Assembly: GCA_951406725.2 (NCBI GenBank) | Contig: OX597825.1 | Coordinates: 64,294,001-64,358,000 of the forward strand | DNA from: Octopus vulgaris | Lineage: Eukaryota | Length of the DNA stretch: 64,000 bases | Direction of reading: 5' to 3' | Shown here: piece by piece, positions 13,364 through 57,750 of the stretch | Numbering within the stretch: position 1 is the stretch's first letter | How the letters are laid out: each line of letters starts with the position of its first letter | Translations under genes and position numbers: made by a program | Notes under the pieces: generated by a model | Databases searched by the model: none | Told to the model about the DNA's origin: nothing | The model's input: only the letters and a program-made list of their open reading frames with translations

Positions 13364-15356
13364 TATAAATAGGAATTTATGGAGGTTTCGAAGCAGTCAT
13401 TTATAGTTGTACTCTTTACCTATGTATCAGACAAATATTGACATAACAGGGTTGTTAACTTTCCAGATTTTTTTTTTATTCTTGAGATTGATGTCTTTTT
13501 CCCACTCTCCATCGGTATCAAATGACTACAATCGATTGAAAGCCGAGTAAATTCCAATCAATCAAATCAATTTGCATATACACACACGCGTACACACACA
13601 TATCTACACGCTCACACACATACGAATACACACGCTCACATACACACAAGCATGTATACATATATGTCTGTCAATGCTGTTGTGTGAAATTACATGACTC
13701 AGTACCAATGTTATTACTGGATTCTTTTGGTTATACATAATTATAACGTCATAAAAGAAATCAAAGGTGTGCTATTAAGCAGCTTTACCTTAATTGCTAG
13801 ACATTAGTGACAGCAATGAAGTGTACAAACATAGTTGTTCCCTTGAATGCTGCATATACCTTGTGGATTTATTACATTTACGATTTTTCCAACAAATTAC
13901 TCGAATAGTGATATTGATGTGTACCAAATAAAACTAGCTCACTGCGTGTGCGTCTGAGGGTTTGAGTGTGTATGTGTATAAACATGAACTTGTGTGCACG
14001 CTAGTGTGTGTTTGTGTGTGTCTAACGCACGCTTGTATGTGTAAATATTATTTCTGTGTGAAGGACTGTACGTGCCTAAATGATTTTTAATATTCACATT
14101 GCTACTTTAGTGGTTTTTCTTTCGCCTTTATTTTTCTGAGTTTAGTTTCCGATTTGGTTTACTTTGACTCTCCTTTTTTAGACTCTCATTCTTTAGACAC
14201 CGAGGTTGAGCTAATATACTTACCCAGCCCCATGAAATTTTGGGGCTTGTACTAAAATTTGAAACCCGTATTCATATAGCTATTCACTGGATATATTCTA
14301 TATAGGAACAGCGAGTGACCTATATTTCTGTCTGTATGTATGTATGCACACATGTATATATGTATCTGAATACCTTATTTATATATGTATCTATATGTAC
14401 ATGCACACACACACTGATATATATATATATATATAAATACATATATTAATAAATTTATTTATATATACATACATATATTAATAAATTTATTTATATATAC
14501 ATACATATATATATACCTACATTCATATATGTGTGTATATACATCTGTATATATATATATATGTGTGTGTGTGTGTGCTAACATGTATGTATATGTGTAT
14601 ATATGCATATATATATGTGTGTGTGTTGGTGTGTGTGTCTGTGTGTCTGAGTATTTCTGTGTGAGTATGTATTGATAAAGCTGTTTATAGAAATAACTTC
14701 ACACATTCACAATATTCAAAGAAAAATATTCTAAAATTCATTAGCTATTTCAAAAAATATATCTAGAAAACAATGTATCACCAAATAGTCATTTCGTACA
14801 TTCTTCCACTTGTTTCAGTTATTAGACTGCGGCCATACTGTGGCATCACCTTGAAGAATTTTACTCGAATTTGTATAAGATTAGTACTTATTCTATCGAT
14901 TGCTTTTTACATTTCGATTACTTTTTTACATTTAGCTAATTTTGACCCACGTGATTGTATAGCGCTTTAGGGCACAGACTAAATGCTTGTTATTTGACAG
15001 CAAACAGGTGGAATCTTCTTAGCCTTCCACCGACAATAAGCACACTTGCCATTTATTGGGATAGTTGCAGCAACCTACTCTTGTTGTGCAATTCATGCGA
15101 TATATATACATATATATATATATATATATATATATATATATATATATATTGTTATATTTCGGAATGGTCATATTGCCAGTTTAGCCAATTATATATATAT
15201 AATTTATGTGAAATAGAAAGATGAATAATCTTGTAGTAGATTAATCAAAAGTTTAACCGATACCTTGGTAGCAAAAATCACAGCAGAAGACAGCACGGTT
15301 GGAGGTACAACCATATGGTGTTGCAACCGTGCGTTGGTGCGGATAATTGAATTTTA

Positions 15357-15873
15357 ATATTATTAGTGAATTGAAGAAATAGAGCTGAACGAAGATTGAA
15401 CAGAAATCGTTTTATTTCATTCTACACGTGTTTCGAAAGGCACAATTTACCAAAATCCGATTGAATAATGAGACTATATTGTGTATTTCTCTTCAGGAAG
15501 AAATAGGAAATCCGTTGGAAAAAACAAAAACAGAACAGAGGCGGAGCAAAACAAATCGAACTAGGCTCCTAAGAGCCCATGGCCAAACTGTTTATCAGTG
15601 TATGTTGAGAACGGGTGGTGGGTGCGTTGAAGATTTTAACGGGTCAGGCAGCGGTCATTCCTGTGGCTGAGGGCACGGGGTGTGTAGACGTTCTTTGTGA
15701 CCGAGAGTAAAGTTCTGACTATTTAAAGAATATTGGATGTATTATATGGGGCGAGCAAAATCTACTTAGAGACATGTGTGTGTTTACTGTTCTATATATG
15801 TGTGCTGGCGCAAGTTGGTAAGAAGCGCTATTTTCTGGTCACTGCTGATACCTCCGTCCAGGGGTAGAAAACA
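15357..15873 (-). repeat. Left inverted arm (pairs with 17072-17584)
   Basis: Direct comparison shows a few substitutions and one small indel. The same 80-aa spurious ORF is called on both arms. Confidence 0.97.
15414..15504 (-). ncRNA. Minimal type I hammerhead ribozyme, inverted copy
   Basis: Reverse complement of 17436-17526 with the core intact. Confidence 0.85.
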
Positions 15874-16760
15874 CTAAAAACCTCGCCCAGATAATCGCCT
15901 CCCATAATAATAGGCTGCTTACTAAGACCCTATCACCTTTTTCCGGAAGCACAGCTTCTTCCGCTCCCGGTTTAATGCTCAGTAGGAATAATAATAGTAG
16001 TAATAATGATATGAGAGCCAGTAAAGTGAATCATAATCTCAGCTCCAACCAGGGATTATATACTAGGGGTATAGTTATAAATAGGGGTGTTGTAGTTGAC
16101 GGTAACAATGGCAGTAGTGAGGTGAGCGCAGCTCGGCTCGTTAGGGTAGAGAGTCCCATTAGCAACCCCAGCATCGTTTCCGGCAATAGCAGCACCACGG
16201 GCACTAGCAATGACAGTACTCTGATAGATAGTGGAGAACCAGGGGTTATTCCGTTAGTTAATAGTGACGTAGTGGAAAATAAAGTAGTAAGCGGCTGCAG
16301 TTCTCGCAACAAATATAGTGACAGTAACGCAGTTCTAATTTCAGAAACTAATCCTAGCAGAATAAGATTCACGTCGGCGAACTCCAAGATCAGAAACGCC
16401 GTCTACCAATGCAAGGTTTACACGGACTCAGATGTCTACGCTTATGTAGGGGCCTCATCGCCAAGATTGGCTTTACGAATCTCCAACCATTACGCAACTT
16501 TTCGAGACATGAATAAACGCCAGACCACGGGACTCAGCAAGCTAATATGGCGATTGAAGAATACGAACTCAAGCTACAGGCTGGAATGGTCAATTTTGTC
16601 GGTGGCCCTCCCATTTGATAGGGGCAGAAGGAAGTGCAACCTTTGTGTCTCCGAACTCTTCCATATATTGTTCGCCAGAGACCGGATGGCAAACGGACTT
16701 TTACAGTCGGCTTTTCGATGCCCCCATTGGCGGCGTTATACTTATCTTGCTTATAAATAA
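15873..16760 (+). CDS. C-terminal part of a Penelope-like polyprotein: Asn/Ser-rich linker plus GIY-YIG endonuclease (RT lost by 5' truncation)
   Basis: Motifs VYQC..YVG..RISNH..F..TGLSKLIWRLK..LEWSIL..A.PF..CNLCVSE..CPH. The frame stays open upstream of ATG 15975 (TKNLAQIIASHNNRLL, resembling the PLE N-xx-II-xx-HN-xx-L motif) up to the inversion junction. Confidence 0.85.
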   Translation, partial: TKNLAQIIASHNNRLLTKTLSPFSGSTASSAPGLMLSRNNNSSNNDMRASKVNHNLSSNQGLYTRGIVINRGVVVDGNNGSSEVSAARLVRVESPISNPSIVSGNSSTTGTSNDSTLIDSGEPGVIPLVNSDVVENKVVSGCSSRNKYSDSNAVLISETNPSRIRFTSANSKIRNAVYQCKVYTDSDVYAYVGASSPRLALRISNHYATFRDMNKRQTTGLSKLIWRLKNTNSSYRLEWSILSVALPFDRGRRKCNLCVSELFHILFARDRMANGLLQSAFRCPHWRRYTYLAYK

Positions 16761-17435
16761 CGCTTATATATAATACCTGCACCCGGTTACACTACTTATA
16801 TGAAAATAGCCCTTGGTAATAAATTCTGAAAAAGGCCTTTAAGAGAAATATGATTAACCACTGCAAGGGGAATTACTCCTGTGAGATGAATGGGGCTTTG
16901 TTTTTGACGACGGGGGGGTTTCTTTGACAAGGCATGATTAGACGAACACACGCACACATAAAACATAAAATATTTTTCTGCCGCCCGACGGTTCTTACTG
17001 CAGTGACCATTGTGTAGAGCTGTTTAACAACTGACAGCCGCGCGATCAAACGCACACACGTACACAAAAAATGTTTTCTACCACGGAGGTCTCAGCAGTG
17101 ACCAGAAAATAGCGCTTCTTACCAACTTGCGCCAGCACACATATATAGAACAGTAAACACACACATGTCTCTAAGTAGATTTTGCTCGCCCCATATAATA
17201 CATCCAATATTCTTTAAATAGTCAGAACTTTACTCTCGGTCACAAAGAACGTCTACACACCCCGTGCCCTCAGCCACAGGAATGACCGCTGCCTGACCCG
17301 TTAAAATCTTCAACGCACCCACCACCCGTTCTCAACATACACTGATAAACAGTTTGGCCATGGGCTCTTAGGAGCCTAGTTCGATTTGTTTTGCTCCGCC
17401 TCTGTTCTGTTTTTGTTTTTTCCAACGGATTTCCT

Positions 17436-56884: not shown

Positions 56885-57214
56885 TATTTCTTTACTACCC
56901 ACAATGGGCTAAACACATAGAGGACACACAAGGACAGACAAACGAAATAAGTTGATTATATCGACCCCAGTGCGTAATTGGTACTTATTTAATCGATCCA
57001 GAAAGGATGAAAAGCAAAGTCGACCTCGGCGGAATTTGAACTCAGAACGTAGCGGCAGACGAATAACCTCTAGCATTTCGCCCGGCGTGCTAACGATACT
57101 GCCAACTCGCCGCCGAGGGTATAGTAGAAGACACTTGCCCAAGGTATCCAGCAGTCGGAATGAACCAGGAACCATGTGGTTGGTAAGCAAGGAACTTCCC
57201 ACACAGCCACTCCT
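56885..57214 (-). mobile_element. SINE family D (56885-57113) abutting a family A head (57115-57214)
   Basis: Homology switches between families at ~57114. Confidence 0.85.
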
Positions 57215-57563
57215 ATTAATGTTATAGATGCAGGGCCCAATATTGCTCACATGACCTTTCGTTATCTGTATGATTTTGCTTCTGCGTTTATGTGCTATAC
57301 AACTCCCAACGTTTTGATAAACGCCATAAGAATACTTTTCGTCTGTTTATCTCTTTATTGAAATAAAGGCTTGCAATTCGATTGAATTGTTTCTATTTGA
57401 ACTGTAAACAGACGTTACATCACAAAACTTACAATTCGATACACTGTTTACATTGTGTATATTGCCTGTATACATGTACACACACACACACACACAAACA
57501 CACACACACACACACACACACACACACATATATATATATATATATATATATATATATATATAT

Positions 57564-57750
57564 TGGTTGTATACTGTCAATCTAACAAGAACGTGACAGT
57601 AGGGGGTACACCACCGCTGTATAGCCCTAGGACTATACAGCGGTGGTGTACCCCCTACTGTCACGTTCTTGTTAGATTAACAGTATACAACCATTCTATC
57701 GCCCCACCACCGTACATGTCTCTACGAGAGATTTAGAAATTCAATATTTC
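57564..57750. repeat. Fold-back element between (TA)n tracts
   Basis: 61-bp arms 57564-57624 / 57633-57693 with one mismatch, plus a ~57-bp right extension. Confidence 0.92.

What the first reader, a model, noticed from the sequence alone, without database searches (positions are those of the whole stretch)
15201..57750. One architecture at three scales: asymmetric fold-back elements in (TA)n, probably Penelope-like insertion products
Seen: at least five unrelated sequences (15201-17584, 22897-23115, 34225-34437, 34716-35046, 57564-57750; weaker cases 50502-50621 and 4898-5003) share one layout. It is (TA)n, an inverted arm pair, a 57-156 bp extension outside only one arm, then (TA)n. Three carry hammerhead cores or half-cores followed by AATAAA, and the largest carries a GIY-YIG ORF. 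Known: PLEs have pseudo-LTRs with minimal hammerheads, 3' extensions and inverted truncated copies. Inference: the small hairpins are not MITEs but extreme 5'-truncated, back-to-back PLE 3' ends made by priming from both sides of a cut in (TA)n. This would be a route that seeds the genome with long hairpins, some self-cleaving.
Basis: partly seen in the sequence, partly recalled or inferred. Interest (0 to 1): 0.8.

Follow-up and report, generated by a model that had tools for sequence, protein, structure and literature searches.

The report
Head-to-head Penelope-like retroelement ends
Three of these lopsided DNA hairpins are paired, head-to-head, cut-short ends of Penelope-like jumping genes sitting in TA repeats, a layout already described; three more probably are, and a conserved stem-loop found here likely sets where copying starts and so how long the one-sided tail is.

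Summary
The layout is real in 6 of 9 inverted repeats examined (A 15201-17584, B 22897-23115, C 34225-34437, D 34716-35046, E 57564-57752, F 50502-50911). G (4898-5003) does not fit. A, B and F are Penelope-like (PLE), Hydra-type 3' ends joined head to head. A carries a Hydra-type endonuclease whose family has an RT. Ten inversion junctions in other copies all differ, while tailed ends stop at one place against (TA)n, which refutes a MITE for family A. B has two complete Hydra-type hammerheads. C, D and E show no PLE marker and stay unassigned (about 50%). The architecture, including small opposite-strand hammerhead pairs, is already in print. Self-cleavage of the hairpins is unlikely, because folding buries the ribozyme. 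New in my searches: (1) Hydra PLE ends lie 6-10 nt upstream of a covarying bulged stem-loop repeated every 57-83 nt, and B's 71-nt tail is one such period; (2) family A lacks the CxCX5C linker yet sits in (TA)n. Likely mechanism: both target strands prime at two stem-loop-defined RNA sites, and the two cDNAs are joined by microhomology.

The parts
15204..15356 (-). A: one-sided tail (about 153 bp) of the short inverted copy
   Evidence: Other copies end at 15204 against (TA)n (9 contigs in X2, 1 in X13); 73-76% like F's extension
15357..15873 (-). A: inverted 5'-truncated pLTR copy with type I hammerhead (core 15496-15423)
15870..15873 (.). A: inversion junction with 4-bp microhomology
   Evidence: Arm alignment runs to 15873; other copies continue upstream of 15870 in frame (7 contigs in X3), matching P0151
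15870..16760 (+). A: 5'-truncated ORF: thumb end, N/S-rich linker without CxCX5C, GIY-YIG endonuclease
16761..17583 (+). A: 3' pLTR with hammerhead (core 17444, cleavage after 17517), ending 66 nt later at (TA)n, no tail
22897..22967 (-). B: 71-nt tail holding the Hydra bulged stem-loop, which starts 6 nt after the junction
   Evidence: Top hit in the window with model R2, 22971-22932, E 0.12
22968..23038 (-). B: tailed copy with complete hammerhead; distal end 108 nt after cleavage site
23036..23115 (+). B: untailed copy with complete hammerhead, includes the 6-nt loop; ends 37 nt after cleavage site
   Evidence: 84% over 50 nt to the Hydra locus L004, E 1.4e-7; extended stem I uses the loop
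34225..34437 (.). C: extension 34225-34284, arms 34285-34352 and 34368-34437; origin unassigned
   Evidence: no hit
34716..35046 (.). D: arms 34716-34821 and 34844-34947, extension 34948-35046 ending in its own short stem-loop; origin unassigned
   Evidence: no hit
50502..50595 (-). F: untailed copy with 3' half hammerhead, ends 64 nt after cleavage site (A: 66)
50596..50911 (+). F: 26-bp arm plus 290-bp extension homologous in part to A's tail
57564..57752 (.). E: arms 57564-57624 and 57633-57693, extension 57694-57752; origin unassigned
   Evidence: no hit

Best explanation
A, B and F are pairs of 5'-truncated Hydra-type Penelope-like 3' ends joined head to head in (TA)n, likely made in one insertion event in which both cut target strands primed reverse transcription at two different internal sites of the element's RNA. 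Shown: the PLE identity, two discrete end classes, variable inner junctions in family A, and short microhomology at the joins of A and B. Inferred: each start site is an A/T-rich, TA-like spot 6-10 nt upstream of a bulged stem-loop that the RT likely binds; the stem-loop repeats every 57-83 nt, so the strand primed at the farther site carries one extra period (the tail); the two cDNAs stop early and host repair joins their 3' ends. When both stop within about 100 nt, a small hairpin such as B results. C, D and E probably arise the same way from families whose markers were cut off or that I could not recognise (about 0.5). The hairpins are by-products and are predicted not to self-cleave.
For: A: endonuclease hits include RT-bearing Hydra-type ORFs. 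An Octopus sinensis protein, P0151, joins an RT core (33% over 157 aa to P0022) to A's linker and endonuclease (49% over 237 aa). On contigs of 4 runs laid on 15201-17082, 10 of 12 listed joints are inversions, all different and each in one contig. The short copy reaches -103 to 420 nt and the long copy 438 to more than 1700 nt from the untailed end. Tailed ends stop at 15204 against (TA)n, and summed depth in the three DNA-sized runs is highest over the tail and outer arm. Hydra loci: 42 of 55 hammerhead-bearing copies carry the stem-loop motif downstream. Of 21 TA-run junctions, 9 lie 27-55 nt and 10 lie 95-116 nt after the cleavage site; dropping 2 internal runs, 8 ends include no stem-loop and 11 exactly one. 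In 6 of 8 copies with a continuing relative the junction is 6-10 nt before a stem-loop (5 by pattern, 1 by eye). One pair covaries, C-G in 30 and U-A in 16 of 48 sequences. In 34 loci not used for the model, 17 of 18 hits are on the element's strand. B matches both end classes (37 and 108 nt) with the stem-loop 6 nt into its tail. In A, B and F neither copy contains the other, so two primings are needed. Both-strand extension and two internal start sites were shown in vitro for a Poseidon element (PMC11167929).
Against: C, D and E have no hammerhead, stem-loop or ORF link, and arm-to-extension pairing is not significant (320, 61 and 42 of 500 shuffles as good). No listed family-A joint is a near-perfect small hairpin (0 of 10). 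B, C, D and E have loops of only 6-22 nt, which independent random truncation does not predict. A's and F's tails have no hit to the stem-loop model, so the rule is not shown for that lineage. B's stem-loop scores only E 0.12 window-wide. The outer four pairs of the stem were required by my search pattern, so their invariance is circular. Most joints have only 21-28 nt on the short side at 85% likeness. Several of the 80 loci belong to the same families. Which copy is tailed is not fixed: in L019 the long copy runs further. Frangieh et al. report initiation without homology to the cut DNA, unlike the TA-like starts inferred here.
Confidence: 0.72

Rival explanations
1. The small near-perfect hairpins (B, perhaps C-E) are double run-off products: both cDNAs are primed near the 5' end of the RNA and stop at the same landmark (RNA start or a strong stall), rather than at independent random points.
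For: Loops of 6-22 nt in B-E against very unequal breakpoints in all 10 family-A joints. Both copies of B stop within about 10 nt of the 5' base of hammerhead stem I. The stem-loops also sit at the 5' end of full-length loci. In vitro product length followed the RNA 5' end.
Against: No transcript start is mapped. F stops inside stem II and 26 nt from the end. Small loops are also what a reader notices most easily.
Confidence: 0.3
2. C, D and E are DNA-transposon derivatives: MITEs that landed at the edge of a TA run with a second run nearby by chance, or Helentron-type non-autonomous elements whose 3' inverted repeat is subterminal and followed by a palindrome.
For: No PLE marker. A TA run lies within 160 nt of 18% of positions. 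Extensions of 57-62 nt in C and E match the 38-60 bp offset reported for HINEs (PMC4067079), and D and E have stem-loops near the far end.
Against: On the extension side the next two bases are AA, TT and TT, not a TA duplication. Arms are 61-106 bp against 12-15 bp subTIRs, and flanks are (TA)n rather than T runs. The same layout is PLE-made in A, B and F of this window.
Confidence: 0.3
3. A single cDNA snapped back on itself and copied its own end (fold-back synthesis).
For: Small loops; a 3-4-nt self-complementary overlap at B's loop; L019 is nested, with the long copy also running further.
Against: Snap-back needs one copy to contain the other. In A, B and F the tail is on one copy and the longer 5' part on the other.
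Confidence: 0.1
4. The stem-loop marks endonuclease cut sites in DNA during resolution of the intermediate rather than RT start sites in RNA.
For: Craig et al. attribute the tail to EN-mediated resolution. Frangieh et al. cite that the D. virilis tail was needed for EN recognition. Covariation does not tell RNA from single-stranded DNA.
Against: In the one in vitro system the tail maps to RT start sites in RNA.
Confidence: 0.2

Closest known systems
Hydra clade of C-terminal EN+ Penelope-like elements (Craig et al. 2021, PMC8557442; e.g. Penelope-13_HM with a 5'-truncated inverted copy, Hydra-2_Amil, Hydra-1_Obim)
   Same: Endonuclease with CxxC and CxH around the conserved E and N, hammerhead near the 3' end, (TA)n flanks, inverted truncated copy, one-sided tail. 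B's hammerhead has the same stem I and nearly the same stem III as Hydra-2_Amil by eye.
   Different: Family A has an N/S-rich linker with no CxCX5C. Tails are 71-290 nt, not 30-40. The paper's text and supplement do not contain the words hairpin, stem-loop or palindrome, although the motif is visible in its Hydra consensus sequences.
Poseidon element PAc of Anolis (Frangieh et al. 2024, PMC11167929)
   Same: Both strands cut and extended; two internal RT start sites define the tail; a stem-loop at the start region.
   Different: [quoted passage not shown]
Dual minimal hammerheads on opposite strands in Schistosoma mansoni (Cervera and De la Pena 2014, PMC4209133)
   Same: Opposite-strand hammerhead pairs, in a set read as truncated PLEs.
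   Different: 100-700 bp apart, no tail or target analysis in section 5; B's cores are 15 nt apart.
LINE-1 twin priming (recalled; only search listings seen)
   Same: Second target strand primes internally and gives a 5' inversion joined by microhomology.
   Different: As recalled, L1 inversions carry little duplication and the second site is not fixed; here both copies share up to 500 bp of the 3' end.
Non-LTR retrozymes (PMC7229834; bioRxiv 10.64898/2026.07.22.740005)
   Same: Non-coding PLE-related pieces with type I hammerheads.
   Different: Direct tandem repeats able to self-cleave, not inverted pairs.

Membership tests
Penelope-like elements, EN+ (A, B, F) | C-terminal GIY-YIG endonuclease | tested here: met
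   A ORF, 2482 hits at E up to 0.001, motifs align with RT-bearing ORFs
Penelope-like elements, EN+ (A, B, F) | RT upstream in the same ORF | tested here: met
   Met for family A, not this truncated copy: P0151 and in-frame loose ends. Not testable for B and F
Penelope-like elements, EN+ (A, B, F) | Type I hammerhead in the pLTR | tested here: met
   A and B complete in both arms, F 3' half
Penelope-like elements, EN+ (A, B, F) | Variable 5' truncation, inverted copy, one-sided tail | tested here: met
   10 different inversion joints of 12 listed, tail end at 15204
Penelope-like elements (C, D, E) | Hammerhead, PLE ORF or Hydra stem-loop | tested here: inconclusive
   None found, but truncation or a hammerhead-free clade would give the same blank; no match by eye to Octopus Naiad or Hydra-1_Obim ends
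Hydra clade | No CCHH; CxxC and CxH either side of conserved E and N | tested here: met
   Alignments A1 and A6 against the definition
Hydra clade | CxCX5C linker before the endonuclease | tested here: not met
   Absent in A, P0002, P0003, P0011 and P0151; present in the Argonauta protein P0009
Hydra clade | Insertion in (TA)n | tested here: met
Hydra clade | RWK and DKT motifs in the N-terminal RT region | not testable with these tools
   A and P0151 both begin downstream; no full-length relative found
Hydra clade | Placement in the RT phylogeny | not tested
   Only pairwise similarity
TA-targeting MITE | Both inverted ends flanked by a TA duplication | tested here: not met
   Extension side reads AA, TT, TT in C, D, E
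TA-targeting MITE | Fixed internal structure among copies | tested here: not met
   Not met for family A; not testable for B-E, as no genome is held
Helentron non-autonomous elements (HINE) | 12-15 bp subterminal inverted repeats | tested here: not met
   Arms 61-106 bp
Helentron non-autonomous elements (HINE) | 3' palindrome and T-rich target | tested here: inconclusive
   Stem-loops near far ends of D and E, but flanks are (TA)n
Non-LTR retrozymes | Direct tandem units each with a hammerhead | tested here: not met
   Copies are inverted; definition

The most novel reading that the evidence does not exclude
Hydra PLEs carry a repeated bulged stem-loop that works as a start ruler. A dimeric RT-endonuclease binds two neighbouring copies on one RNA and primes both target strands one period apart. 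When it loads on the 5' copies, both cDNAs run off the RNA end and are joined into a perfect tailed hairpin. All six elements, including C, D and E, would be such programmed products, seeding the genome with long double-stranded RNA templates, and (TA)n targeting would not need the linker zinc finger.
Probability: 0.25. Interest if true: 0.68.

Novelty: new variant of a known kind. Interest (0 to 1): 0.4.

Why it matters
The layout itself is known. The useful part is a testable handle on an open question that Craig et al. name: how PLEs form tandem or inverted copies and tails. A conserved, covarying stem-loop at a fixed short distance from insertion ends predicts RT start sites and tail length from sequence, and B is a 219-bp natural product that holds both start sites. 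A high-copy family without the CxCX5C linker that still sits in (TA)n argues against the proposed link between that linker and targeting. For annotation, such hairpins would likely be mislabelled as MITEs or miRNA precursors.

Tried and rejected
No whole genome is held, so the proposed genome-wide BLASTN could not be run. Rfam gave only sub-threshold microsatellite or hairpin matches among the 150 of 221 rows shown. Pfam missed the endonuclease. Two searches for longer relatives found none. Alignment A2 was too diverse to scan with; viral contigs held no relative. Searches used a mis-indexed structure; model R1 was discarded and redone. Arm-to-extension pairing looked suggestive in single folds (D z -4.1, E -1.75, C +0.6) but failed the duplex test; D's score likely comes from its terminal stem-loop. 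Weak by-eye resemblances of the C, D and E extension starts to the Hydra motif were not supported by model R2 and are not counted. A fixed rule that the tailed copy is the shorter one holds in A, B and F and in two joints inside the tail, but L019 goes the other way. No run listed is on record as RNA; X13 is only guessed RNA, so nothing is claimed on expression or editing. The same-sense joint 15481-16758 lacks splice ends by eye. Five of six look-ups in earlier findings were empty. G, H and I were rejected as members of the layout.
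Full report
Setting. The window is AT-rich animal DNA dense in microsatellites. The closest named proteins to its ORF come from Octopus sinensis and Argonauta, so the host is likely an octopus (inference). No genome is held. Labels: A 15201-17584, B 22897-23115, C 34225-34437, D 34716-35046, E 57564-57752, F 50502-50911, G 4898-5003, plus H 3728-3855 and I 53902-54052, which self-BLAST added.

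Observation. All arms exist. In A-F one arm abuts a TA run and the other is separated from one by 58-290 bp; direct abutment has a chance of about 0.006 per side. G, H and I do not fit, so the layout holds in 6 of 9. Complete hammerheads are in both arms of A and B, F has a 3' half, and C, D and E have none. A and F are related.

Element A. The ORF is a Hydra-type GIY-YIG endonuclease preceded by the end of the RT thumb. P0151 links the same linker and endonuclease to an RT core. Loose ends at 15870 in 7 contigs read in frame into the residues that P0151 has there, so this copy is 5'-truncated and joined to the inverted arm over a 4-bp microhomology. Contigs of four runs (two species labels) gave 12 distinct joints: 10 inversions and 2 same-sense deletions. 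All 10 inversions differ and each is in one contig, at depth 16-82 where listed, against summed depths of mostly 10^4-10^6 in the three large runs. The short copy reaches -103, -79, 23, 89, 149, 218, 355, 375, 380 and 420 nt from the untailed end. Tailed ends stop at 15204 against (TA)n. Caveats: short sides of 21-28 nt in most joints, 310 loose ends not shown, and no listed joint forms a near-perfect small hairpin. The family lacks the CxCX5C linker that helps define Hydra, so I file it as a Hydra-like variant.

A rule for Hydra ends. A scan of metagenome contigs returned the best 80 of 495 related loci. Of 55 hammerhead-bearing copies, 42 carry the motif GAG(C/T)ACT within 170 nt downstream. 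It is the 3' side of a bulged stem-loop that repeats every 57-83 nt (18 intervals). Its outer four pairs were required by my pattern, but the next pair was free on its 3' side and covaries (C-G 30, U-A 16 of 48; 90% of cells paired against 80% shuffled and 25-56% slid). The model found 18 hits in 34 loci left out of it, 17 on the element's strand. TA-run junctions fall in two classes: of 21, 9 at 27-55 nt, 10 at 95-116 nt and 2 between. Without two internal runs (L066, L073), 8 ends include no stem-loop and 11 exactly one. Of 22 TA-ending copies, 8 had a relative that continues; in 6 the junction is 6-10 nt before a stem-loop (5 by pattern, 1 by eye) and in 2 no stem-loop followed. Some loci share families, so the counts are not independent.

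Element B. Its hammerhead is 84% identical over 50 nt to L004 (E 1.4e-7) and scores E about 1e-9 with the PLE hammerhead model. The untailed copy ends 37 nt after the cleavage site and the tailed copy 108 nt after it, one in each class. The tail begins with TA-like bases and, 6 nt in, a stem-loop whose outer pair is A-U in place of G-C; this is the best hit in 64 kb, on the expected strand (E 0.12). The 6-nt loop extends stem I of the untailed copy, so neither copy contains the other. B is thus two separately primed PLE ends. F is the same in A's lineage: a 26-bp arm plus tail, joined to a longer untailed copy ending 64 nt after its cleavage site (A: 66).

Elements C, D, E. They share the layout and lack a TA duplication on the extension side, but nothing ties them to a PLE. 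Pairing between arm and extension is not significant. I give PLE origin about 0.5, DNA-transposon or Helentron origin about 0.3, and the rest to other causes.

Mechanism. Shown here: identity of A, B and F; two end classes tied to a stem-loop in Hydra loci; variable inner junctions; microhomology at the joins of A and B. From the literature: both-strand cleavage and extension and two internal start sites for a Poseidon element (PMC11167929). Inferred: the stem-loop positions the RT, each target strand primes at one site, the cDNAs end early and are joined by repair. Unexplained: why the loops of B-E are so small; run-off at a shared RNA end is the leading idea (0.3). The hairpins probably do not self-cleave: on either strand the sense hammerhead follows its own complement, and forcing it in B costs 74-77 kcal/mol.

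What is known. Craig et al. (PMC8557442; abstract, passages, section 11, supplement parts 2, 24, 52, 53 and term searches) describe the inverted truncated copy, the one-sided tail, Hydra in (TA)n and an Octopus Hydra family. Cervera and De la Pena (PMC4209133; abstract, passages, section 5) note opposite-strand hammerhead pairs. Frangieh et al. (PMC11167929; parts 1-2 of 4; supplements not read, and their Fig. S2 may bear on the stem-loop) explain the tail. I also saw passages of PMC4067079 and PMC7229834, and part 1 of 5 plus passages of bioRxiv 10.64898/2026.07.22.740005, whose supplements are closed. L1 twin priming is recalled. I found no description of the Hydra stem-loop rule or of the linker-less lineage in searches, or in term searches. 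The library lacks most subscription papers and may lack older Penelope work, so absence is weak.

Verdict. Real, mostly known architecture; proven for A's family, strong for B and F, open for C-E. The stem-loop rule and the linker loss are the parts worth following. Interest 0.4.

Noticed in passing
L001-L080, e.g. L069 (two copies after the hammerhead at 267-311), L061:101-191: Repeated bulged stem-loop (GCTC...GAGCACT) downstream of the hammerhead in Hydra PLEs; insertion ends lie 6-10 nt upstream of a copy.
   Followed up: yes
window 15873-16400: Family A replaces the CxCX5C linker with a long N/S-rich stretch; Octopus copies are annotated as unrelated low-complexity proteins, one as a kinase.
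   Followed up: partly
window 11900-13150, minus strand: Decayed second Hydra-like ORF remnant with N-rich linker, interrupted by a probable SINE (tblastn E 8e-4 and 6e-3).
   Followed up: partly
window 3728-3855 and 53902-54052: Two further degenerate hairpins (H, I) without TA-run flanks; origin not determined.
   Followed up: partly
joints 15409-15634 and 15481-16758: Family-A variants with internal deletions that remove all or half of the hammerhead.
   Followed up: no
joint 15737-16557: 27-nt filler made of a duplicated 11-mer at an inversion junction, resembling templated insertion by end-joining repair (recalled).
   Followed up: no
L004:244-472: Solo pLTR of about 200 bp with hammerhead between two TA runs, without an inverted partner.
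   Followed up: no
L019:790-974 and 2821-3077; L063:1-986: Inverted truncated copies at the 5' end of Hydra loci in other animals; in L019 the long copy runs further at the 3' end.
   Followed up: partly
window 9136-9310 and 13180-13365: Two near-identical copies of a probable SINE, each ending in a short TA run.
   Followed up: no
window 33700-34020: Short ORF that resembles a Tc1/mariner transposase fragment by eye; no Pfam hit.
   Followed up: no
window 29738-29771: Second-best hit of the stem-loop model (E 0.35), not in any listed element.
   Followed up: no
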